From an uncultured Actinomycetes bacterium (GTDB taxonomy: Bacteria > Actinomycetota > Acidimicrobiia > Spongiisociales > ZC4RG35), in the NCBI GenBank assembly GCA_963730285.1, contig CAVSQY010000010.1:2721-66720 (forward strand): a stretch of DNA of 64,000 nt, written 5' to 3'. Below, piece by piece: positions 7,134-64,000 of this stretch. A model generated the notes under the pieces. That model did not search any database and had not been told where the DNA came from. It worked only from the letters and a program-made list of their open reading frames with translations. The translations under genes and the position numbers were made by a program. Within the stretch, counting starts at the first letter, position 1, and every line of letters starts with the position of its first letter.

Positions 7134-7592
7134 GTGCTCAGATTCATCTTCAACCTGTTCAAATTCACGCTGTTCGCCCTCTTCGGAGTTGCCGTGGCTG
7201 CGAAGTTCCTTCTCCAGTCACATGCGTCTTCGCAAACCGAGGAGATCGACCTGGTCGCGATCTTCGGCGGTGAAGACCTGGCCTCGACGGCCGACCCCTT
7301 TTATGGGGGCAAGATCACCACGATGTTCGGGGGAACCAAGCTCGACCTGCGGCGAGCTACCCCCGCACCCACCGGTGTCTACCTGGACGTCCTCGCCATC
7401 GCCGGTGGGGTCGACCTCATAGTCCCCGATGGCTGGCGGGTCGAATTCGACGGAAACGTATACGCAGGCGGCTTTGCCGACGAGACCAACGCGACGGCCG
7501 ACCCTGACGCTCCGATCCTCCGGATCGACGGGATGGTGATGATGGCCGGCCTACGCGTCACCACTCGAGCCACCCTCGAGGTGGTTGTCTGA
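7134..7592 (+). CDS. LiaF-like (DUF2154) cell-envelope stress protein
   Basis: An N-terminal TM is followed by a beta-rich region: TMFGGTKLDLRRATPAPTGVYLDVLAIAGGVDLIVPDGWRVEFDGNVYAGGF. GTG start. Confidence 0.6.
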   Translation: MLRFIFNLFKFTLFALFGVAVAAKFLLQSHASSQTEEIDLVAIFGGEDLASTADPFYGGKITTMFGGTKLDLRRATPAPTGVYLDVLAIAGGVDLIVPDGWRVEFDGNVYAGGFADETNATADPDAPILRIDGMVMMAGLRVTTRATLEVVV

Positions 7593-8818
7593 TGCCCACC
7601 CGGATCGAAGCCGACCGCCTCGTCCCGGGTCGGGGCGAGGTGATCGAAGACGCCGTGGTCATTTTCGACGAGATCATCACCTACGCCGGCACGGTCACCA
7701 ATGCCCCGGCGACACCCGGAGCCGATACCGTCCGAGCCGATACCGTCATGCCGGGCATGTGGGAGTGCCACGGGCACTTCATCGGCACCTACACCGCGGC
7801 ATTGACCGAGGAACTTGCCACCACCCGGCCCCAGATGACCGCTATGCGCGTGACCGCCGACGCTCGGCGTGTGCTCATGGCCGGTTTCACCTCGGTGCGC
7901 GAGATGGGGGGCCTCGGCACCTTCTTGAGCCGCGTGATCGACGAGGGCCAGGTCGTCGGGCCAAACATCTACGCCAGCGGCTCCATGCTCTCGATGACAG
8001 CCGGTCACGGGGACACCCATGGGATGGACCTCGAGGACGCACACCGGTTGCTGGCCCACCACTGGGGTGAGAGCTCGATCTGCGACGGTCCCGACCAATG
8101 CCGGGCAGCGGTGCGCCGCATGCTCCGTCTCGGAGCGAAGGTGATCAAGGTTCATGCCTCCGGCGGCGTCATGAGCGAGCTAGACGATCCAAAACTGCCG
8201 CAGTTCTCCAAGCCCGAACTGGAGGCGATCGTCGATGAGGCCACCCGAATGGAACGTCTGGTCGGCGCCCACTGTCACGGCAAGAGAGGGATCATGGCCG
8301 CCCTCGAAGCCGGGGTTCGCACCATCGAGCACGGCACCTACCTCGACGAGGAGGCGGCCGATGCGATGTTGGAGACGGGGGCGATTCTCGTGCCGACCCG
8401 CTGGATCGTCGATTACCTGCTCACCGAGGGTGCCAACCGAGGGATGCCGGAATACGCCAAACGCAAGGCTGTCGTCGCCGCCGAGCATCACGCCAACGCC
8501 GTGGCCACGGCGGTGAGCAAGGGGGTCAGGATCGCCATGGGAACCGACATCTGGGGCACCGGGCTTTGGGGCAAGAACGCCGAGGAGCTGGGGTTCATGG
8601 TGGATGCGGGTATGACGCCCCTCCAAGCGATAGAGACCGCCACCGCAAATGGGCCGGGCACATTGGGACCACAAGCACCCAGATCGGGTCAGCTCGTCGA
8701 AGGATTCGATGCCGACGTGATATGCATCACCGGCAACCCCTCACGCGACGTCTCGATCCTGGCGGACCCCGGGAACATAACCCACGTCTGGAAGTCCGGG
8801 ACCAGAGTCAAAGGCTGA
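7592..8818 (+). CDS. Amidohydrolase-family metallo-hydrolase
   Basis: The HxH metal motif is present (PGMWECHGHF), with later GAHCHG and MGTDI segments. The start overlaps the upstream stop (TGATG). Confidence 0.8.
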   Translation: MPTRIEADRLVPGRGEVIEDAVVIFDEIITYAGTVTNAPATPGADTVRADTVMPGMWECHGHFIGTYTAALTEELATTRPQMTAMRVTADARRVLMAGFTSVREMGGLGTFLSRVIDEGQVVGPNIYASGSMLSMTAGHGDTHGMDLEDAHRLLAHHWGESSICDGPDQCRAAVRRMLRLGAKVIKVHASGGVMSELDDPKLPQFSKPELEAIVDEATRMERLVGAHCHGKRGIMAALEAGVRTIEHGTYLDEEAADAMLETGAILVPTRWIVDYLLTEGANRGMPEYAKRKAVVAAEHHANAVATAVSKGVRIAMGTDIWGTGLWGKNAEELGFMVDAGMTPLQAIETATANGPGTLGPQAPRSGQLVEGFDADVICITGNPSRDVSILADPGNITHVWKSGTRVKG

Positions 8819-56750: not shown

Positions 56751-57947
56751 ATGACTGAACATGTGAGGATTTTCGACAGCACGCTGAGAGACGGGGAACA
56801 GGCCCCCGGGATCGCACTCGACCCCGACGCCAAGGTGACGATCGCAACCCAACTGGAGCGGCTCGGCGTTGACATAATCGAGGCCGGGTTCCCGGTCTCT
56901 TCGCCCGGTGACTTCGAGGCGGTGACTCGCATCGCCCGCGAGGTGCGGGGACCGACCATCGCCGCCCTGGCCAGGGCCCAGGCAGACGACGTCGAACGAG
57001 CATGGGAAGCCATCCGCGACGCAACCGATCCCAGGATTCACGTCTTCCTCGCCACCTCTCCCATCCACATGCAGCACAAGTTGAGGATGAGCGAGGAGGA
57101 AGTCCTCGCCGCGGTGAAGGCCAATGTGGCCCGAGCCCGGGACCACACCGAGAACGTGGAGTACTCACCTGAGGACGCCACCAGATCCGAGCCCGACTTC
57201 GTGGTAGCCGTTTGTCGGACTGCGGTCGAGGCCGGGGCGACCACCATCAACATCCCCGACACCGTTGGCTATGCCACGCCGGCCGATTACGGGGCCTTGA
57301 TCGGCCGAATCGTGACAGAAGTCAAGGGTGGTCGTGACGGGATCGTGATCTCCACTCACTGTCACAACGATCTCGGGCTGGCCGTGGCCAACTCGCTGGC
57401 AGCAGTGAGCGCCGGGGCGAGACAGGTGGAGGGTGCCATCAACGGGATTGGAGAGCGCGCCGGGAACACCTCGATCGAGGAGGTAGTCATGGCCCTGCGA
57501 GTGCGCGAGGACGCCTTCGGGGTGGGGATTTCGGTCTCATCGGAGGAGATCTTCGAGACCTCCCGGCTGGTGTCGGAGAAGACCGGCTACCCGATTCAGT
57601 ACAACAAGGCCGTGGTGGGCCGCAACGCCTTCGCCCATGAGTCGGGCATCCATCAGCACGGCGTGCTCCGAGAAAGAACGACCTATGAGATCATGACTCC
57701 GGCATCTGTCGGGATGGGAGAGTCGATGATCGTGATGGGAAAGCACTCAGGCCGGGCCGCGTTCAAGCACTCTCTGGGGAAGATAGGTGTGACTTTGAGT
57801 GGTCAGTCCTTTGAGACGGCATTCGCCCGCATGAAGGAGACCGCCGATCGGTTCGGCGAGGTGTCCTTGCATCAGATCCGGCTTATCGTCGATGATGTCG
57901 TCTCCGACATGGAGGTATTGGACGGCGTGGCCGCCTCATTCAGATGA
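56751..57947 (+). CDS. 2-isopropylmalate synthase / citramalate synthase family enzyme lacking the C-terminal regulatory domain
   Basis: IFDSTLRDGEQAPG, HCHNDLGLAVANSL and HESGIHQHGVL are present. The protein is 398 aa and ends after subdomain II, with no LeuA_dimer/R-domain segment. The SD is AAAAGGAG. Confidence 0.8.
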   Translation: MTEHVRIFDSTLRDGEQAPGIALDPDAKVTIATQLERLGVDIIEAGFPVSSPGDFEAVTRIAREVRGPTIAALARAQADDVERAWEAIRDATDPRIHVFLATSPIHMQHKLRMSEEEVLAAVKANVARARDHTENVEYSPEDATRSEPDFVVAVCRTAVEAGATTINIPDTVGYATPADYGALIGRIVTEVKGGRDGIVISTHCHNDLGLAVANSLAAVSAGARQVEGAINGIGERAGNTSIEEVVMALRVREDAFGVGISVSSEEIFETSRLVSEKTGYPIQYNKAVVGRNAFAHESGIHQHGVLRERTTYEIMTPASVGMGESMIVMGKHSGRAAFKHSLGKIGVTLSGQSFETAFARMKETADRFGEVSLHQIRLIVDDVVSDMEVLDGVAASFR

Positions 57948-59023
57948 GCAACTATTCGATCGCAGTGGTTCCCGGAGATGGGACCGGCCCCGAGGTCGTC
58001 GCCGAGGCGATGAAGGTTCTCGCGGTCGCCTCGCCCTTGTTCGACATCACGCTCGATTACGTCGAGATGGACCTGGGCGGGGAGCGATACCTGCGCACCG
58101 GCGAGACACTCACCGGCTCCGACCTCGAGACGTTGGGAAATGCCAACGCGATCCTCTTTGGCGCAGTTGGCCATCCCGATGTGACACCGGGCATCCTCGA
58201 GCAGCAGATCTTGCTCAGGATGCGCCGCGAGCTGGATCAGTTCATCAATCTTCGACCGGTCAAGCTCTACCCCGGCGTCACCGGCCCGCTTCGTGATGTG
58301 GATGCCGAGGACATCGACTTCGTGGTGGTTCGAGAGAACAGCGAAGGCCTCTACGTGGGCCAGGGCGAGTTCACCGCCAAAGGCTCGCCCTTCGAGGTGG
58401 CCGTGCAACAGTCGGTGAACAGCCGGTTCGCGGTGGAGAGATGCATTCGATATGCCTTCGAGCTCGCCTCCAACCGACCCCGCCATCACCTCACCATGTG
58501 TGGAAAGACGAATGTCCTGACCTACGCCTGGGACCTCTGGGCTCGAGTGTTCGACGAGGTTGCCAGCGAGTATCCCCAGGTGACGACGTCATATGCCCAT
58601 GTAGACGCAGCGTGCCTGTGGATGGTCGAGGACCCGTCACGATTCGACGTCATCGTCACCGACAACATGTTTGGCGACATCATCACCGATCTCGGCGCCG
58701 CCATCCAGGGTGGGTTGGGTATCGCCTCCGGTGCGAACATCAACCCAAACGGCGTCTCGATGTTCGAGCCCATCGGGGGCACCGCCCCCGGGTTCGAAGG
58801 CACCGGGTTGATCAACCCCCTGGCCGCGATTGGCGCCGCAAGCATGATGCTCGATGTACTCGGTCAACCCGGGGCGGGCCACGCAATCGAACAGGCAGTT
58901 GGCTCCGTTGCCGGGTCACTGCCGTCGTTGAGGGCCGGTGAGATGGGTATCAGCACGTCGGAAGTGGGCGACATGGTGGCCGGAATCGTCGCCGAGTCGA
59001 GCCCGGCCGGGGTGGCCCGATGA
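57944..59023 (+). CDS. leuB: 3-isopropylmalate dehydrogenase
   Basis: [13 protein letters not shown] and [19 protein letters not shown] are present. ATGA overlap with the upstream gene. Confidence 0.9.
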
Positions 59024-60486
59024 GCAAGACTCTCTTCGAGAAGATATGGGAAGAACATGTCGTCGACAGCCCCCGACAGGAGGCGGCTCGTCTGGAGGCC
59101 CTCGCTGAAGCTGGGCTCACCGACCACGGAGAGCTGCTGGGAGAGCACCAGGATCTCATTTACATCGACCTCCATCTGATACATGAGGTGACCTCGCCCC
59201 AGGCCTTCGAAGGGTTACGTCGGGCAAGAAGGACCGTCCGCCGACCCGAGCTCACTCTGGGAACCGTCGATCACAACGTCCCCACCATCGGAAGAGACCT
59301 CCCCAATCCCGATCCATTGTCCGGGCAGCAGATCGAGCTGATGCGCCGCAACGCGGAGGAGTTCGGGGTGACGCTCTACGACATGTTCGACGTGCGCCAG
59401 GGCATCGTCCACATCATCGGGCCGGAGCAGGGGTTCACGCAGCCGGGGATGACCATCGTATGCGGGGACAGCCATACTTCCACCCACGGCGCCTTCGGCG
59501 CGCTCGCCTTCGGCATCGGCACATCGGAGGTCGAGCACGTCCTGGCCACCCAGACTCTCCGCCAGTCAAAGCCCAAGACGATGTCGATCGAGGTCACGGG
59601 TGAGCTGGCACCGGGCGTAACCGCCAAGGACGTCATCCTGGCCATCATCAACGCGATAGGAGTCCACGGAGGCATCGGCCACGTCATCGAATACAGGGGA
59701 AGTGTTATTCGCCGGCTATCGATGGAAGGCCGGATGACCATATGCAACATGTCCATCGAGGCCGGGGCCAGGGCTGGGCTCATCGCCCCCGACGAGACGA
59801 CCTTCGAGTACATGAAGGGCCGGCCACATGCACCCAAAGGAGAGGACTGGGATAGGGCGGTGGAGCGCTGGCGGCGACTCACTACCGACGACGATGCCGG
59901 CTTCGATCGCGAGGTGGTGCTCGACGGTGCTGAGATTCGCCCCTTCGTCACTTGGGGGACCAACCCCTCCCAGAGTGTTCAGGTGGATGGCAGTGTCCCC
60001 GCTCCCGAGGATTTCCCGGAACCACAAAGGGAATCAGTGAGGCGGGCGCTCACTTACATGAACCTGACGCCCGGTACACCGATGAGCGAGATCTCGATCG
60101 ATCGAGTTTTCATCGGGTCGTGCACCAACGGGCGTATCGAGGATCTCAGGGCCGCATCGAAGGTGGTCGACGGGAAGAAGGTCGCCGAGGGGGTGACCGC
60201 CATGGTGGTGCCGGGCTCGGGTCTGGTGAAACGTCAGGCCGAGGACGAGGGTATCGCCGACGTCTTCATCGCCGCTGGTTTCGAATGGCGCGATGCCGGC
60301 TGCTCGATGTGTCTCGGGATGAACCCCGACATCCTTCTTCCAGGTCAGCGCAGCGCTTCGACCTCGAATCGAAACTTTGAAGGTCGACAGGGGCCGGGGG
60401 GTCGCACTCATCTACTCAGCCCGGAGATGGCCGCGGCGGCAGCAATCGCCGGGCATCTCATCGATGTCCGGGAGGTTTTCGCATGA
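59020..60486 (+). CDS. leuC: 3-isopropylmalate dehydratase large subunit
   Basis: [46 protein letters not shown] and GCSMCLGMN are present. ATGA overlap. Confidence 0.95.
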
Positions 60487-61076
60487 GAGCCGTTTCCGTC
60501 GTTCGAGGCAAGGCGATCCCCATGGACAGAGCCAACGTCGACACCGACCAGATCATCCCCGCCAAATACCTCAAGCGGGTCGAGCGCACCGGTTACGGGC
60601 CATATTGCTTCGATGCCTGGCGCCAAGATCCGGACTTTGTGTTGAACAACCCGGCCTACGGCGGTGCCACGATCATGCTGACCCGGGAGAACTTCGGCTC
60701 TGGATCGAGCCGTGAGCACGCGGTCTGGGCCTTGGAGGGATTCGGGATCGAGGCCCTGATCGGGGTCAGCTTTGCCGACATCTTCAAGAGCAACTGCTTC
60801 CAGGGCGGGATGATCACGGTCGAGCTGCCCGCAGAGGACATCGATTACCTCATGGACCTGAGCACGGCCAGTCCTGAGACGGAGATCGAAGTCGACCTCG
60901 AAGCCCAAGAAGTTCGTGCCGGGGACTGGATACGCGGCTTCGACATCGATCCGTTCCGCAAGTATCGGCTCCAGCGCGGTCTGGACGACATCGCCATGAC
61001 GCTGGCTTACAGCGCCGACATCGACACGTTCGAGACAGCGAGAGGGCTGAGCCTTCCCAGCACCTCGGAACGCTGA
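60483..61076 (+). CDS. leuD: 3-isopropylmalate dehydratase small subunit
   Basis: [14 protein letters not shown] and [16 protein letters not shown] are present. ATGA overlap. Confidence 0.95.
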
Positions 61077-61090
61077 CGCCTGCAACGTCG

Positions 61091-63127
61091 CTACCGGCCT
61101 CGCCCAATGCCCAGGGCTCCCAGCAGATCCTCGAATTGATCGAAACGGAGTGACTGCGGCCCGTCACTGAGAGCATTATCCGGGTCGGGATGGATCTCCA
61201 CCATGATCCCGTGTGCGCCGATGGCCTGCGCTGCCAACGCCAGGGGTGCGACCAGATCGCGATTGCCGGCAGCATGAGAGGGGTCGACGATCACCGGCAG
61301 GTGGCTGCGCTGCCTCAACACCGGGACGGCACTCAGATCGAGCGTGTTCCGGGTCGAGGTCTCGAAAGTGCGGATCCCGCGCTCACAGAGGAAGACCTGC
61401 TGGTTGCCTTCGGACAATATGTATTCGGCAGCCTGGAGTAGCTCGTCGAGCGACGAGCTCATCCCCCGCTTGAGCATCACCGGCCGATGCGCCCGACCCA
61501 CCGCAGAAAGAAGCGAGAAGTTCTGCATGTTTCGGGTGCCGATCTGGAGAATGTCAGCAGTCCTCGCCACCTGCTCCACATCCTCCGGCGAGACGACCTC
61601 GGTCACGACAGGCAAGCCATAGGCCTTCCCGGCCTCAACCAGCATCTCCAGACCTTCATAGCCCAGACCCTGGAACGAGTAAGGCGAGGTCCTGGGCTTG
61701 AAGCATCCGCCTCGGAGGATCGACCCACCGGCCCGTTTGACGATCTTGGCCGTAGCCATCACCTGGTCCCACGACTCGACCGCACAAGGTCCGGCGATCA
61801 TCACCAGCTCGTCCCCACCGATCTTCACTCCGGAGATTTCAATCACGGTGTTTTGAGACTTGTGACCTCTGCTCCCCAGCTTGTAGCCCTTCGGCTTGTC
61901 CAAGGGCGTGTCGAGCTGGGTAAGAGCAGCGCGTCCCTCGGGGTCGACGTTCCCGACACCTCGCTCCACAGGCTTGGGCCTCAAATCCCGGGAGGGGTAA
62001 CTGCCCAGCACCCGGAGGAAGCGAACCTGTCTGGTCAGCTCCTCGAGAACGGCCTGCACCTCCGGATCGGATGCGTTGCCGTCGAAGTCGAGATAGAAGA
62101 GCTCCTCCCGAGGATTGTGCGGGATCGGCCGTGACTCGAGCATCACGAGGTTGATGTCCGCCTCGTGGAAAACGGCAAGCGCATCCATGAGGGCGCCCGG
62201 GTGGTTCCCAACAGCCATCACGATCGAGGTCTTGGAGGCAACCCCGTCCGGGACTTGGGCAGGCTCTCGGGCCACCACCACGAACCGGGTGTAGTTCTCA
62301 TCGCGGTTGGCGACGGCCGATTGCAGAATATCGAGACCGAACAGCCGCGCTGCTTGCTCACTGGCGATGGCGGCAACGGAGGGGTCGTTGAGCTCCTTGA
62401 TCCGCTTGCCCGAGAGCGCGGTGTCGGAGAAGTAGACCACCTCCACATTGTCGAGCCGAGCCAGGAACTCCGAGCACTGAGCCACCGCCTGGGGATGACC
62501 GTAGATCCGCTTCAGACCGGCCACGGTGGCGCCCTCCAAGCCGAGAAGGCAATGTCTCACACGGAACCTGACGTCCCCGACGAAATGGAGCTGACTGTTC
62601 AGGAGAAGGTCGTAGACCTCTGAGATCGCACCGGATGTCGTGTTCTCGATGGGGAGAACAGCCACCCCGGCCTCGCCCTTCTGCACCTCTTCGATGGCGT
62701 CACTGAACGTCGACGAGCGGATGTAGGTGACCGGTATCCCCTTGGAGTCGAAGAACTGTTGCGAGGCGAGTTGGCTGTATGAGCCTTCGATGCCTTGTAT
62801 GGCGACCGTGATGGGACCCCCGGCATTCTCCGAGCGACCCAACAACTCCTGTTGGATCCTGACCGAGTCGTTGACGATCTCCCGCCACACACGATTGACC
62901 AGTCCGGCATCGAGATCGTGGTCCATGCCGGCGGCGATGCGATCGGCGATCAAGTCCTCTTCTCGCAGCTGATCGCGTGAGGGGCGATCCTGGGCGTCCT
63001 TCTCCTTGGCGATGCGAAGGCTGTGTGCCTTGCGCTCCGCCATCAGCTTCAAGATCTCGTTGTCGATCCGATCGATGTCGTCTCTTATTCGGTTGATGTC
63101 GTTCGAGTTCAATTCATTGTTGGTCAT
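61091..63127 (-). CDS. Trifunctional fusion: chorismate mutase (AroQ) - prephenate dehydratase - ACT - DAHP synthase (type I-beta)
   Basis: aa 8-96 are CM-like ([23 protein letters not shown]). aa 106-285 are PDT ([22 protein letters not shown]). aa 298-378 are ACT (MLESRPI). aa 426-678 are DAHPS I-beta ([24 protein letters not shown]). This is one uninterrupted 678-codon frame. Confidence 0.85.
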
Positions 63128-63193
63128 GGGTATGCCTCGGCGCGTCTAAGTGGGCAGGGAGGGAAGAACAGCGGGGGTGGGGGTGGATCGGCG

Positions 63194-63268
63194 CTACGCG
63201 CCGAAATAGACGAACCCGAAGAAGCGCCCGGAACCGGCAGCGACGCTCGAGGATGGGTTCGTGGCCAT
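63194..63268 (-). CDS. Phe/Tyr-rich leader peptide (24 aa) upstream of the CM-PDT-DAHPS gene
   Basis: MATNPSSSVAAGSGRFFGFVYFGA has 4 Phe and 1 Tyr in the last 9 codons. The ATG lies 9 nt after the -10 hexamer. It is below the ORF-track size cut-off. Confidence 0.6.
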   Translation of the reverse strand: MATNPSSSVAAGSGRFFGFVYFGA

Positions 63269-63277
63269 GCGGGACAG

Positions 63278-63306
63278 ATTATCCGCATGTGCGACTTCCG
63301 TGTCAA
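63278..63306 (-). promoter_or_regulatory. Sigma-70-type promoter of the Phe leader / fusion gene
   Basis: The minus strand reads TTGACA - 17 nt - GATAAT. Confidence 0.6.
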
Positions 63307-63333
63307 CCCGGGGCCTCCAGTAGCTTCTGGAGG

Positions 63334-63519
63334 ATGAGCCGTCTCAACTATGCCGTGGGGATCCTTCTGCTGTTGGCAGGCGCCATCTGGGTGCTGCAGG
63401 GTTTCAACGTGGCGTTTGCCCCGGAGAGCTTCATGACGGACGACCCGATGTGGATCATCTGGGGAGCGGTTGCGATCCTGGTCGGCTGTGGCCTGATCTG
63501 GCGTGCCCGCATTCGTTGA
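63334..63519 (+). CDS. Small two-TM membrane protein
   Basis: MSRLNYAVGILLLLAGAIWVLQGF...WIIWGAVAILVGCGLIW. An internal ATG of ORF 63253-63519 is chosen. Confidence 0.5.
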   Translation: MSRLNYAVGILLLLAGAIWVLQGFNVAFAPESFMTDDPMWIIWGAVAILVGCGLIWRARIR

Positions 63520-63564
63520 GCCAGCGGCCATGGCTCAACCGCAATACAATCGACTGGAATCGAC

Positions 63565-63924
63565 ATGAGCGATCTACCGAGCATTCCCGAGAAGGCTCTG
63601 GCCCCCGAAGAGCTACAACGCTTCATGTACGCCTGCTCTCACGAGCGCCGCTCCCCCACCACACAGCGTCTCATCGACGCTTCTTCATATGGCTGGGTGC
63701 ATTTCTTCATACGAAGTCATGGCGAAGACGCCACCGAGACTTCCCGCCCGGATGATTGGCTGGAGCCCCACGACGCAAACCCCGCCAAGCTCTCCGACTT
63801 CTTTGGAAGGGTTGCAATCCGACTGCGGGACACCGGCGCTCACGACTACGCGAAAATCGTTGGAGCAGTACTTCGAGCAACTCGCCGAAGAGCGGCAGCC
63901 CTGGCTGTATCGCTGATCCGCTGA
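63565..63924 (+). CDS. Hypothetical protein
   Basis: 119-aa ORF with coding-like composition. I recognise no family. Confidence 0.4.
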   Translation: MSDLPSIPEKALAPEELQRFMYACSHERRSPTTQRLIDASSYGWVHFFIRSHGEDATETSRPDDWLEPHDANPAKLSDFFGRVAIRLRDTGAHDYAKIVGAVLRATRRRAAALAVSLIR

Positions 63925-63949
63925 ACCAACCTCGTCTTTTTGTCACGGG

Positions 63950-63965
63950 TCGAACGTATGTTCGA
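63950..63965. promoter_or_regulatory. LexA (SOS) box, actinobacterial type
   Basis: TCGAAC-GTAT-GTTCGA is a perfect match to the TCGAAC-N4-GTTCGA palindrome. It overlaps a possible -10 (TATGTT) 7 nt upstream of the ATG at 63970. Confidence 0.7.
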
Positions 63966-63969
63966 GAGT

Positions 63970-64000
63970 ATGAACTGGGAGAGTCTCAGCGAAGACCAGC
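63970..64000 (+). CDS. 5' end of an SOS-box-preceded gene (truncated by window end)
   Basis: ATG AAC TGG GAG AGT CTC AGC GAA GAC CAG encodes MNWESLSEDQ. Only 10 codons are visible, so the identity is unknown. Confidence 0.3.
   Translation, partial: MNWESLSEDQ

What the first reader, a model, noticed from the sequence alone, without database searches (positions are those of the whole stretch)
61091..63127. One polypeptide fuses chorismate mutase, prephenate dehydratase, ACT and DAHP synthase
The 678-codon frame runs without interruption through four recognisable modules:
- AroQ-type chorismate mutase (about aa 8-96, nt 63106-62840).
- Prephenate dehydratase with the TRF motif (aa 106-285, nt 62812-62273).
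- ACT domain with ESRP (aa 298-378, nt 62236-61994).
- After a 45-aa linker, a type I-beta DAHP synthase with GPCAVES, KPRTS and DPSH (aa 426-678, nt 61852-61094).

The characterised relatives I know are bifunctional: the E. coli P-protein (CM-PDT-ACT) and B. subtilis AroA (CM-DAHPS). Here the first committed step of the shikimate pathway is physically joined to the two Phe-branch steps. The Phe-sensing ACT domain sits between them. This arrangement could put DAHPS under direct Phe control. I am not aware of a characterised enzyme with this architecture.
Basis: partly seen in the sequence, partly recalled or inferred. Interest (0 to 1): 0.8.

Follow-up and report, generated by a model that had tools for sequence, protein, structure and literature searches.

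The report
Three-enzyme phenylalanine/shikimate fusion protein
One gene really does join the entry enzyme of aromatic amino-acid synthesis (DAHP synthase) to the two phenylalanine-branch enzymes and their phenylalanine sensor; this fusion is widespread in several mostly uncultured bacterial groups, I found no biochemical study of it, and in this lineage it sits behind a conserved Phe/Tyr-rich leader peptide.

Summary
Window 61091..63127 (-) is one uninterrupted 678-codon ORF. HMMs and solved structures support chorismate mutase, prephenate dehydratase, ACT and type I-beta DAHP synthase, and every catalytic or ligand residue I checked is intact. It is not an assembly artefact: at least 119 species-representative genomes encode a relative. 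These are labelled Acidimicrobiia, Ignavibacteriota (including the named species Stygiobacter electus), Planctomycetota and Acidobacteriota. The true linker is about 25 residues, variable and predicted disordered, not 45. I found no paper characterising the enzyme. Databases name it as only bifunctional.

Three further findings:
1. Many relatives keep the same four-domain order but have lost the DAHPS catalytic ligands (Shewanella, Agarivorans, Myxococcota). A 2005 paper called the Shewanella case a "bizarre" pseudogene fusion.
2. PDT has probably been fused to DAHPS several separate times, in different orders.
3. In Acidimicrobiia the gene is preceded by a conserved promoter, a probably leaderless uORF ending ...RFFGFVYFGA*, a GC hairpin over its stop codon and a C-rich tract. 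This looks like a Phe/Tyr attenuator.

Phe control of DAHPS through the ACT domain is plausible by analogy but untested. Verdict: real, an uncharacterised variant of known kinds, moderately interesting.

The parts
61091..63127 (-). Whole ORF, 678 aa plus stop: CM-PDT-ACT-linker-DAHPS
   Evidence: HMMs; PDB matches
62834..63106 (-). AroQ chorismate mutase module (aa 8-98). R15, R32, K43, D52, R55, E56, S88, Q92 correspond to EcCM R11, R28, K39, D48, R51, E52, S84, Q88
   Evidence: Pfam CM_2; alignment to 1ecm; residues 98.6-100 % conserved in 72 full-length fusions
62258..62812 (-). Prephenate dehydratase catalytic module (aa 106-290) with TRF motif at 280-282
   Evidence: Pfam PDT 185 bits; 2qmx, 7alz, 6vh5 alignments
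61970..62236 (-). PheA-type ACT regulatory module (aa 298-386) with GALM 311-314 and ESRP 331-334
   Evidence: [quoted passage not shown]
61898..61969 (-). Inter-module tether (aa ~387-410): Pro/Lys/Ala/Glu-rich and the least conserved stretch of the protein
   Evidence: identity to query 0.19-0.26 at aa 391-410; length varies between clades; AF2 pLDDT 52-56, below 50 at aa 388-394
61112..61897 (-). Type I-beta DAHP synthase barrel (aa 411-672). Metal ligands C448, H618, E644, D655; KPRT at K477-T480
   Evidence: PRK08673 433 bits and TIGR01361 392 bits, both above cutoff; alignments to 1vs1, 1rzm, 4grs; ligands invariant in 72 sequences; Foldseek 1vs1 rmsd 1.4 A, TM 0.94
63278..63306 (-). Sigma-70-like promoter TTGACA-17-GATAAT (11 of 12)
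   Evidence: 1 site found, 0.4 expected; a TTGACA/GATAAT-like pair lies at the same place in most of the 51 loci printed
63194..63268 (-). 24-codon upstream ORF MATNPSSSVAAGSGRFFGFVYFGA*. Its ATG is ~10 nt after the -10 box, so it is probably leaderless. Candidate Phe/Tyr-sensing leader peptide
   Evidence: read; conserved C-terminal F/Y run with variable N-terminus in 51 Acidimicrobiia-type loci; synonymous TTC/TTT and TAT/TAC variation
63189..63203 (-). 6-bp GC hairpin CGGCGC-GUA-GCGCCG with the leader stop codon in or at the loop
   Evidence: nearly invariant in 31 aligned sequences; closing pair CG 25, UG 3, UA 2; motif occurs once in the window with 0 expected and once per locus in 46 loci
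63140..63188 (-). C-rich, G-poor spacer (52 % C, 16 % G over 63128-63189, which includes this spacer): candidate Rho-loading (rut-like) tract. GAGG Shine-Dalgarno follows at 63135-63138
   Evidence: mean 49 % C and 15 % G in 51 loci, against 32 % and 32 % in the downstream CDS

Best explanation
The gene encodes a genuine trifunctional enzyme. It is a complete P-protein (AroQ chorismate mutase + prephenate dehydratase + Phe-binding ACT domain) joined by a ~25-residue flexible tether to a catalytically competent type I-beta DAHP synthase.

Shown here:
- All four modules are present and intact.
- They are under purifying selection across several phyla.

Inferred mechanism:
- The DAHPS barrels form the usual I-beta tetramer core.
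- The N-terminal P-protein parts pair up, because AroQ CM, PDT and ACT are all obligate dimers. They would sit on either face of the core, as the N-terminal CM dimers do in Geobacillus DAH7PS and the ACT dimers do in T. maritima DAH7PS.
- Phe binding at the ACT dimer interface shuts PDT, as in known PDTs.
- Because the ACT is tethered directly upstream of the barrel, Phe binding also restricts access to the DAHPS active site. Pathway entry and the Phe branch would then be throttled together.

A second control layer in the Acidimicrobiia lineage, also inferred: transcription starts at a conserved promoter and reads a probably leaderless 19-27-codon uORF whose last ten codons are rich in Phe and Tyr. 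Ribosome stalling there when Phe/Tyr-tRNA is scarce would increase read-through into the enzyme gene. The likely route is interference with the stop-codon hairpin and/or Rho loading on the C-rich tract.
For: Identity and integrity:
- HMM and PDB matches for every module.
- CM, DAHPS metal and KPR residues conserved in 98.6-100 % of 72 full-length genomic copies (six of eight CM and all six DAHPS positions invariant).
- 113 of 119 further homologues, including Stygiobacter electus P0359, keep the DAHPS ligand set (C-K-R-T/S-H-E-D).

Reality of the fusion:
- One continuous frame in 76 of 80 loci from independent assemblies, including a 2.6-Mb chromosome-level MAG.
- Host GC content ranges from 36 % to 69 %.

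Evidence that the fusion matters beyond co-expression:
- On a rough NJ tree and from domain order, PDT was joined to DAHPS at least three times in different orders: CM-PDT-ACT-DAHPS, FXD-DAHPS-PDT-ACT, PDT-DAHPS-CM.
- Many lineages keep an in-frame barrel after its catalytic ligands are lost.

Plausibility of ACT gating:
- Foldseek's best hits to the whole model are full-length TmaDAH7PS (1rzm, 1vr6) and the engineered ACT-on-Pfu-barrel chimera 4grs. Their alignments run ~380 columns, which suggests coverage of both ACT and barrel.
- From my own knowledge, 4grs showed that grafting an ACT domain onto an unregulated I-beta barrel is enough to create Tyr inhibition (Cross et al., PNAS 2013).
- The N-terminal CM and ACT gating mechanisms are described in PMC8408635 and PMC5493349.

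Leader:
-.
- In metagenomes, all 20 F/Y leaders that have enough downstream sequence precede this gene.
Against: - No direct evidence of ACT-barrel communication. AF2 pTM is 0.56, the tether is disordered and variable, and the modelled ACT orientation differs from T. maritima by 11-15 A rmsd.
- The tether is ~25-35 aa, longer than my estimate of the short linkers in TmaDAH7PS and GspDAH7PS.
- The ACT is PheA-type. It does not match the DAHP_snth_FXD family that decorates T. maritima-type enzymes (compare P0140).
- A DAHPS inhibited by Phe alone would starve Tyr and Trp synthesis unless inhibition is partial or another isozyme exists. I could not scan whole genomes for one.
- For the leader, RNAalifold finds no terminator/antiterminator alternation. 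The window leader is no more stable than shuffled sequence (z = -0.22). The hairpin is almost invariant, so covariation support is one pair only.
Confidence: 0.5

Rival explanations
1. Trifunctional but uncoupled. The fusion only guarantees equimolar co-expression and co-localisation, or stabilises the subunits. DAHPS is unregulated or regulated in some other way, and the ACT domain controls PDT only.
For: The tether is long, variable and disordered, and AF2 finds no confident inter-module packing. Undecorated, unregulated I-beta barrels exist (P. furiosus and A. pernix, the closest structural matches). Gene-level control by the leader peptide could be sufficient.
Against: Catalytically dead barrels are retained in frame across genera, which co-expression of enzymes cannot explain. 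PDT-DAHPS fusions recur in different orders. In every characterised decorated I-beta DAH7PS the appended domain is regulatory (PMC8408635).
Confidence: 0.25
2. The barrel serves the P-protein. As in the M. tuberculosis DAH7PS-CM complex and Prevotella DAH7PS-CM, the main benefit is that the barrel acts as an oligomerisation scaffold or allosteric activator of CM and PDT. Regulation of DAHPS itself is secondary.
For: About 30 of 41 four-domain representatives at 50 % clustering have lost the DAHPS ligands but keep perfect CM, TRF and GAL./ESRP motifs. These include cultured Agarivorans and Shewanella. Reciprocal activation and interdependence are documented for Pni and Mtu enzymes.
Against: In the window protein and its whole clade the barrel is fully intact and is the best-conserved module (80-90 % against 68-83 % identity for the P-protein part). 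So catalysis is under selection here. This explanation can also hold together with the best explanation.
Confidence: 0.3
3. CM-centred control as in B. subtilis AroA. The N-terminal AroQ domain is the DAHPS regulator (prephenate or chorismate sensing), and PDT-ACT is an insertion into an ancestral CM-DAHPS.
For: NCBIfam PRK12595 (bifunctional DAHPS/CM) matches above cutoff in two stretches. On the rough NJ tree several N-terminal-CM DAHPS (P0170, P0177, P0180, P0193, P0203) are interspersed among the intact four-domain barrels.
Against: The CM is separated from the barrel by ~320 residues. Its best matches are P-protein CMs (1ecm E = 6e-13, against Bsu, Lmo and Gsp CM domains at E = 1e-3 to 1e-2). 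The NJ tree is only indicative.
Confidence: 0.15
4. Artefact or pseudogene: a missed stop, a frameshift or a chimeric assembly join between pheA and an adjacent DAHPS gene.
For: Two of 80 loci (L044, L058) do show frame breaks.
Against: There is a continuous frame in the window and in 76 of 80 independent loci. The junction is conserved ([12 protein letters not shown]...KGYKLGSR). More than 120 near-identical-length clusters come from NCBI, JGI, ENA and Logan assemblies.
Confidence: 0.01

Closest known systems
E. coli P-protein PheA (CM-PDT-ACT)
   Same: The N-terminal 386 aa are collinear with it (PRK10622 match 8-383; 1ecm alignment). All eight CM catalytic residues, TRF, GAL(V/M) and ESRP are present.
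   Different: It scores 329 bits against the equivalog cutoff of 577, so it is a distant relative. It also carries ~290 extra C-terminal residues forming an active DAHPS.
B. subtilis AroA(G), Geobacillus and Listeria DAH7PS (N-terminal AroQ CM on an I-beta barrel; 5j6f, 3nvt)
   Same: An I-beta barrel with an N-terminal AroQ CM on the same chain. The PRK12595 and TIGR01361 models match above cutoff. The barrel is 51 % identical at 1.5-2 A rmsd.
   Different: Here a full PDT-ACT (~290 aa) lies between the CM and the barrel. In those enzymes the CM is essentially a prephenate-sensing regulatory module (PMC8408635).
T. maritima DAH7PS (ACT/ferredoxin-like domain on an I-beta barrel; 1rzm, 3pg9) and the engineered chimera 4grs
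   Same: An ACT-fold domain lies immediately N-terminal to the barrel. These are the best Foldseek hits to the whole model, with alignments long enough to cover ACT and barrel. PRK08673 matches above cutoff.
   Different: The ACT here is PheA-type with no PF18152 FXD match. The tether is ~25 aa longer. The ACT also belongs to an upstream enzyme.
Shewanella oneidensis aroQ-pheA fused to an 'aroA I-beta pseudogene' (Song et al. 2005, PMC1173090)
   Same: The same four-domain order. My degenerate class includes a Shewanella protein (P0192) and Agarivorans proteins (P0134 cluster).
   Different: In those proteins the DAHPS ligands are lost. In the window protein all are intact, so it is presumably the active ancestral-type form.
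Prevotella nigrescens / Porphyromonas gingivalis DAH7PS-CM, and the M. tuberculosis DAH7PS-CM complex
   Same: They physically couple pathway entry and the branch point, with reciprocal allostery.
   Different: The domain order and partners differ, neither has PDT or ACT, and the Mtu enzyme is type II and non-covalent.
Archaeoglobus fulgidus TyrA-AroQ-PheA-ACT four-domain fusion (PMC1173090)
   Same: A multi-enzyme aromatic-branch fusion that contains AroQ-PheA-ACT.
   Different: Its extra enzyme is prephenate dehydrogenase, not DAHPS.
E. coli pheL-type leader-peptide attenuators
   Same: A short uORF with a run of Phe codons upstream of a pheA-containing gene.
   Different: There is no Rfam Phe_leader match. 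The uORF is probably leaderless, mixes Phe and Tyr codons, shows no detectable terminator/antiterminator pair, and has a C-rich tract that suggests Rho instead.

Membership tests
Type I-beta DAHP synthase (AroA I-beta / DAHP_synth_1) | Sequence membership above curated cutoffs | tested here: met
   PF00793 272 bits (cutoff 25.5); NF006421 433.5 (cutoff 335); TIGR01361 391.6 (cutoff 267.75)..
Type I-beta DAHP synthase (AroA I-beta / DAHP_synth_1) | Metal ligands Cys/His/Glu/Asp and the KPRT(S) PEP/E4P motif | tested here: met
   C448, H618, E644, D655, K477, R479 align with Tma C102, H272, E298, D309, K131, R133 (Tma numbering from my own knowledge). Invariant in 72 homologues.
Type I-beta DAHP synthase (AroA I-beta / DAHP_synth_1) | TIM-barrel fold | tested here: met
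   AF2 pLDDT ~90-97 over the barrel. Foldseek 1vs1 TM 0.94-0.95, rmsd 1.4 A.
Type I-beta DAHP synthase (AroA I-beta / DAHP_synth_1) | DAHP synthase activity and homotetramer | not testable with these tools
   Needs an enzyme assay and SEC-MALS, SAXS or cryo-EM.
P-protein (bifunctional CM/PDT with ACT) | AroQ CM with the eight catalytic residues | tested here: met
   Alignment to 1ecm. Conserved in 98.6-100 % of sequences.
P-protein (bifunctional CM/PDT with ACT) | PDT domain with the TRF motif | tested here: met
   PF00800 185 bits; T280-R281-F282.
P-protein (bifunctional CM/PDT with ACT) | C-terminal ACT with GALV-like and ESRP Phe-binding motifs | tested here: met
   GALM 311-314 and ESRP 331-334; aligned to Phe-bound PDTs. 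The Pfam ACT score of 25.1 is just below the gathering score of 27.
P-protein (bifunctional CM/PDT with ACT) | NCBIfam equivalog score (PRK10622) | tested here: not met
   328.8 bits against the cutoff of 577. It has the same architecture but is not an E. coli-type equivalog.
P-protein (bifunctional CM/PDT with ACT) | Feedback inhibition of PDT by Phe | not testable with these tools
   Needs kinetics with and without Phe.
B. subtilis-type bifunctional CM-DAHPS (AroA(G)) | Model PRK12595 above cutoff | tested here: met
   399.4 bits against the cutoff of 279, in two stretches. This is why NCBI names relatives 'bifunctional DAHPS/CM'.
B. subtilis-type bifunctional CM-DAHPS (AroA(G)) | CM joined directly (~10-aa linker) to the barrel | tested here: not met
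   ~320 residues (PDT-ACT-tether) separate the CM and the barrel.
T. maritima-type ACT/FXD-regulated DAH7PS | N-terminal DAHP_snth_FXD (PF18152) domain | tested here: not met
   No PF18152 hit at E <= 0.01. It is found in P0140.
T. maritima-type ACT/FXD-regulated DAH7PS | ACT-fold domain immediately N-terminal to the barrel | tested here: met
   AF2 secondary structure. The ~380-column Foldseek alignments to 1rzm and 4grs are consistent with this but were not inspected residue by residue.
T. maritima-type ACT/FXD-regulated DAH7PS | Amino-acid-induced ACT dimerisation that occludes the active site | not testable with these tools
   Only a monomer model was possible, and its pTM of 0.56 gives no packing information.
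Leader-peptide transcription attenuator (pheL/trpL type) | Short uORF enriched in codons of the regulating amino acid, conserved upstream of the regulated gene | tested here: met
   51 loci; typically 4 Phe plus 1-2 Tyr within the last ~10 codons; variable N-terminus. Background: about 8 of ~3,270 other short ORFs have such tails.
Leader-peptide transcription attenuator (pheL/trpL type) | Mutually exclusive terminator and antiterminator hairpins | tested here: not met
   RNAalifold finds only one 6-bp hairpin. MFE z-score is -0.22. No T-tract terminator.
Leader-peptide transcription attenuator (pheL/trpL type) | Match to a curated Rfam leader family | tested here: not met
   The E-value scan of 60500-64000 gave no leader family.

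The most novel reading that the evidence does not exclude
The four-domain protein is a new class of allosteric machine in two respects.

1. A PheA-type ACT dimer simultaneously switches off PDT and gates an I-beta DAHPS tetramer. The barrel in turn is needed for P-protein assembly or activity. That second role would explain why many lineages (Shewanella, Agarivorans, Myxococcota) keep it as a dead pseudoenzyme domain.
2. In Acidimicrobiia the gene is additionally governed by a previously undescribed, leaderless Phe/Tyr leader-peptide attenuator. It would work through Rho loading on a C-rich tract rather than through a terminator/antiterminator switch.
Probability: 0.3. Interest if true: 0.7.

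Novelty: new variant of a known kind. Interest (0 to 1): 0.5.

Why it matters
DAHP synthase regulation is a textbook case of allostery built by bolting modules onto one barrel. In every decoration characterised so far the appended part is a small sensor (ACT-like or CM).

Here the decoration is an entire downstream bifunctional enzyme with its own sensor. [quoted passage not shown] If coupling is shown, it would extend the catalogue of DAH7PS control mechanisms and offer a natural template for engineering Phe-responsive flux control.

The dead-barrel relatives would be a clean example of an enzyme domain retained as a pseudoenzyme. They are also currently mis-annotated. Some are named '3-deoxy-7-phosphoheptulonate synthase' although they lack the catalytic ligands, which could mislead metabolic reconstructions of Agarivorans, Shewanella and many MAGs. 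Conversely, JGI names the intact form only 'CM/PDT', which hides a DAHPS.

The leader peptide gives a testable regulatory element for a mostly uncultured actinobacterial class.

Tried and rejected
- **Assembly artefact or missed stop:** rejected.
- **Riboswitch or known RNA leader upstream:** the Rfam E-value scan of 60500-64000 found only a chance snoRNA hit inside the CDS.
- **Classical terminator/antiterminator attenuator:** not found.
- **Aro operon or biosynthetic-cluster context:** none.
  - Only convergent leuDCB is conserved, and only within Acidimicrobiia.
  - Neighbours in Ignavibacteria, Planctomycetes and Acidobacteria are unrelated genes, such as a GH127 glycosidase, an amine oxidase, an SDR and panB.
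- **Second CM, PDT or DAHPS copy:** none in the window or in any of the 80 flanks. Whole genomes could not be scanned.
- **Leader regulon:**
  - The bare 18-nt palindrome is unspecific in metagenomes (79 unrelated hits).
  - True F/Y leaders precede only this gene.
- **AF2 inter-domain geometry:** the full-chain model gave confident modules but no usable packing (pTM 0.56).
- **Sequence link between the PheA ACT and the T. maritima FXD domain:** neither my ACT HMM nor Pfam links them.
- **Profile search with the degenerate class:** it returned mostly intact Ignavibacteriota proteins rather than degenerate ones.
- **Naming the degenerate class:** the first cluster look-up gave almost no organism names. 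The second gave Agarivorans and Shewanella.
- **Literature:** ten full-text searches found no characterisation of the fusion. The library covers open-access papers only, so this absence is not proof.
Full report
**1. Observation**

Window 61091..63127 (minus strand) is one uninterrupted 678-codon ORF.

Pfam finds four modules:
- CM_2 at aa 14-93, 55.6 bits.
- PDT at 108-289, 185 bits.
- ACT at 302-364, 25.1 bits, just under the gathering score of 27.
- DAHP_synth_1 at 428-668, 272 bits.

NCBIfam matches the E. coli-type P-protein model over aa 8-383 in one stretch. It also matches two I-beta DAHPS models above their curated cutoffs: PRK08673 at 433 bits and TIGR01361 at 392 bits.

PDB sequence search finds I-beta DAH7PS structures at E ~1e-90 to 1e-97 (A. 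pernix 1vs1, T. maritima 1rzm, P. furiosus 1zco, Listeria 3nvt, Geobacillus 5j6f). It also finds PDT-ACT structures (2qmx, 7alz, 6vh5, 3mwb) and E. coli CM 1ecm.

One correction is needed. The barrel's N-terminal segment (KGYKLGSR...) already aligns with T. maritima residue 66 and A. pernix residue 9. The DAHPS core therefore begins near aa 411, and the real linker is about aa 387-410 (~25 aa), not 45.

**2. Catalytic competence**

Residue-by-residue alignments map the following (EcCM and Tma residue numbers are from my own knowledge):
- CM: R15, R32, K43, D52, R55, E56, S88, Q92 correspond to EcCM R11, R28, K39, D48, R51, E52, S84, Q88.
- DAHPS: C448, H618, E644, D655 correspond to the T. maritima metal ligands C102, H272, E298, D309. 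K477 and R479 correspond to the KPR motif.
- TRF (280-282), GALM (311-314) and ESRP (331-334) are present.

In 72 full-length genomic homologues these CM and DAHPS positions are conserved in 98.6-100 % of sequences. Six of the eight CM positions and all six DAHPS positions are invariant.

**3. Real and widespread**

- A protein search returned more than 120 clusters at 71-100 % identity. All are 676-690 aa with the same Pfam set and come from NCBI, JGI, ENA and Logan assemblies.
- A scan of one genome per GTDB species found 119 genomes encoding a relative. Of the best 80 loci, 76 have one continuous CM-to-DAHPS frame. L044 and L058 look frameshifted; several others are cut by contig ends.
- Record titles are Acidimicrobiia at 58-92 % identity. 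At 47-53 % they are Ignavibacteria/Melioribacteraceae, Planctomycetes/Phycisphaerae, Vicinamibacteria and Thermoanaerobaculia.
- Locus GC content ranges from 36 % to 69 %, so these are genuinely different genomes.
- The window itself is most like Acidimicrobiia MAGs (92 % to P0006 and L001).
- A later profile search added 113 more proteins with the intact ligand set, mainly Melioribacteraceae. They include the named species Stygiobacter electus.
- An exhaustive search of 50 %-identity representatives showed 63 four-domain clusters among the top 150 hits, reaching ~30 % identity.

**4. Annotation and literature**

- NCBI calls relatives 'bifunctional 3-deoxy-7-phosphoheptulonate synthase/chorismate mutase', because PRK12595 matches in two stretches. 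JGI calls them 'chorismate mutase/prephenate dehydratase'. Each name misses part of the protein.
- Ten full-text searches found no characterisation.
- Parker-lab papers list N-terminal CM, C-terminal CM, N-terminal ACT and undecorated forms only.
- The one relevant prior remark is Song et al. [quoted passage not shown]

**5. An intact class and a degenerate class**

I aligned 56 four-domain proteins (A1).
- *Intact class.* The window clade and about 10 deeper representatives keep all DAHPS ligands.
- *Degenerate class.* About 30 representatives have lost them while CM, TRF and GAL./ESRP remain perfect.
- *Direct reading confirms it.* In P0125, GPCAVES has become GPAFIRS, KPRTS has become YLPAE and DPSH has become DPSR. 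Pfam still scores DAHP_synth_1 at 100-162 bits in these proteins.
- *Named members.* They include Agarivorans species (P0134 cluster, complete genomes, named '3-deoxy-7-phosphoheptulonate synthase' by NCBI), an uncultured Shewanella (P0192) and Myxococcales/Myxococcota MAGs.
- *Interpretation.* The 2005 'pseudogene' therefore belongs to a large class that is maintained in frame. This argues that the barrel has a non-catalytic role in the fusion, as a scaffold or an allosteric partner.

**6. Other arrangements**

Domain HMMs and Pfam show several further orders:
- FXD-DAHPS-PDT-ACT (P0140 and five others).
- PDT-ACT-DAHPS without CM.
- CM-PDT-DAHPS without ACT.
- PDT-DAHPS-CM.
- PDT-ACT-DAHPS-CM.

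A rough NJ tree of 144 barrels places the FXD-first forms among T. maritima-type enzymes and PDT-DAHPS-CM among Prevotella-type DAHPS-CM enzymes. The intact four-domain barrels sit in their own region, interspersed with a few N-terminal-CM DAHPS. This suggests at least three independent PDT-DAHPS fusions. The tree is only indicative: it is NJ, midpoint-rooted, and the dead barrels sit on long branches.

**7. Structure**

- AF2 with alignment A1 gives mean pLDDT 87.3 but pTM 0.56.
- Only aa 1-6 and the tether are poorly predicted. The two ten-residue blocks spanning 381-400 average pLDDT 56 and 52, and 388-394 is below 50.
- The tether is also the least conserved stretch. It is Pro/Lys/Ala/Glu-rich and varies in length between clades.
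- Foldseek's best hits to the whole model are full-length TmaDAH7PS (1rzm, 1vr6) and the ACT-Pfu chimera 4grs. Their alignments run 375-382 columns at rmsd 11-15 A.
- I read those long alignments as the ACT-tether-barrel segment being collinear with T. maritima DAH7PS but modelled in a different orientation. Barrel-only hits superpose at 1.4 A.
- No Pfam FXD match exists, so the resemblance is architectural, not family membership.

**8. Mechanism**

*Shown:* four intact modules on one chain, under selection.

*Inferred from established knowledge of the families:*
- I-beta barrels tetramerise, and AroQ CM, PDT and ACT all dimerise. A tetramer with two P-protein dimers, one on each face, is the natural assembly. 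It mirrors Geobacillus (CM dimers) and T. maritima (ACT dimers).
- Phe binding at the ACT dimer interface is known to close PDT.
- Being tethered to the barrel, the same movement could gate DAHPS.
- From my own knowledge, the 4grs chimera work showed that grafting an ACT onto an unregulated barrel is enough for inhibition.

*Against:* the tether is long and floppy, no packing is predicted, and Phe-only inhibition of a sole DAHPS would starve Tyr and Trp synthesis. I could not check whether a second DAHPS exists. None occurs in the window or in the locus flanks.

I put 0.9 on 'genuine trifunctional enzyme' and about 0.45 on Phe gating of DAHPS. Rival explanations are listed separately.

**9. 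Upstream control element (outside the given coordinates)**

- *Promoter.* A sigma-70-like promoter, TTGACA-17-GATAAT, lies at 63306..63278.
- *uORF.* It is followed about 10 nt later by ATG 63268, which opens a 24-codon uORF: MATNPSSSVAAGSGRFFGFVYFGA* (stop at 63194).
- *Conservation.* Promoter and uORF are conserved upstream of the fusion in 51 Acidimicrobiia-type loci. The N-terminal half varies. The C-terminal motifs are conserved: RFFGFVYFGA*, FGFAYFYFGA*, FFRGYFGA*. Phe and Tyr codons vary synonymously.
- *Hairpin.* The last codons and the stop lie in a nearly invariant 6-bp GC hairpin, with one compensated closing pair.
- *Spacer.* Next comes a spacer of 49 % C and 15 % G, against 32 % and 32 % in the CDS. 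The GAGG Shine-Dalgarno follows.
- *What is absent.* There is no terminator/antiterminator pair, no T-tract and no Rfam family.
- *Specificity.* The motif occurs once in the window with 0 expected. In metagenomes every F/Y leader with enough downstream sequence (20 of 20) precedes this gene.
- *Reading.* I take it to be a Phe/Tyr-sensing leader peptide, possibly acting through Rho. It fits a gene whose product feeds both Phe and Tyr. It is absent from the Ignavibacteria, Planctomycetes and Acidobacteria loci.

**10. Verdict**

The protein is an uncharacterised but common variant built from well-known modules. The degenerate form of the same architecture was noted in 2005. The mechanistic idea is reasonable and testable but unproven.

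Interest is moderate (0.5). It is an attractive allostery target, made more attractive by the dead-barrel relatives and the new leader, but it does not overturn anything.

Limits of this work:
- The structure is a monomer model only.
- The tree is NJ only.
- The literature search covers open-access papers only.
- No whole-genome paralogue scan was possible.

Noticed in passing
window 63140-63306 (-); also L001-L054 and similar loci, ~60-115 nt upstream of the fusion gene: A conserved promoter, then a probably leaderless 19-27-codon uORF ending in a Phe/Tyr run (...RFFGFVYFGA*), a GC hairpin over its stop codon and a C-rich, G-poor spacer. This is a candidate Phe/Tyr leader-peptide attenuator. 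It is not in Rfam and has no terminator/antiterminator pair.
   Followed up: yes
P0123, P0125, P0126, P0128, P0131, P0133-P0135, P0147, P0150...; P0134 = Agarivorans spp., P0192 = Shewanella sp., P0160/P0291 = Myxococcota: A large class of CM-PDT-ACT-DAHPS proteins whose barrel has lost the metal and PEP ligands while CM, PDT and ACT stay intact. This is a retained pseudoenzyme domain and matches the Shewanella 'pseudogene' fusion of Song et al. 2005.
   Followed up: partly
P0140, P0146, P0149, P0153, P0166, P0197; P0171, P0178; P0218, P0250; P0256; P0144, P0148, P0154: Other natural PDT-DAHPS fusions in different orders: FXD-DAHPS-PDT-ACT, CM-PDT-DAHPS without ACT, PDT-DAHPS-CM, PDT-ACT-DAHPS-CM, and PDT-ACT-DAHPS without CM. 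They probably arose as independent fusion events.
   Followed up: partly
database names: Annotation is inconsistent. Intact four-domain proteins are named 'bifunctional DAHPS/chorismate mutase' (NCBI) or 'chorismate mutase/prephenate dehydratase' (JGI). Agarivorans proteins with degenerate barrels are named '3-deoxy-7-phosphoheptulonate synthase'.
   Followed up: partly
L001, L008-L012, L015, L016, L025-L027, L044, L058, L080: Microflora-Danica-type MAG records titled 'uncultured Acidobacteriota bacterium' carry fusion genes 74-92 % identical to those of Acidimicrobiia MAGs and the same Acidimicrobiia-type leader. The submitter taxonomy labels look unreliable.
   Followed up: no
window 57944-61076 (+); about 30 related loci: leuB, leuC and leuD run convergently into the 3' end of the fusion gene, with only 14 nt between the two stop codons. 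No terminator-like hairpin was detected between them. The arrangement is conserved within Acidimicrobiia only.
   Followed up: partly
L058 5818-7144 and L044 ~7380-8040: Two species-representative genomes have the fusion split by an apparent frameshift. These are either sequencing errors or recent pseudogenisation.
   Followed up: no
L071 (Phycisphaeraceae MAG), ~60-90 nt upstream of its fusion gene: An open reading stretch containing ...DRRFFFGYFTAGGRSAMV* lies upstream of a distantly related (47 % identity) fusion gene. It may be an independent or very divergent Phe/Tyr leader.
   Followed up: no
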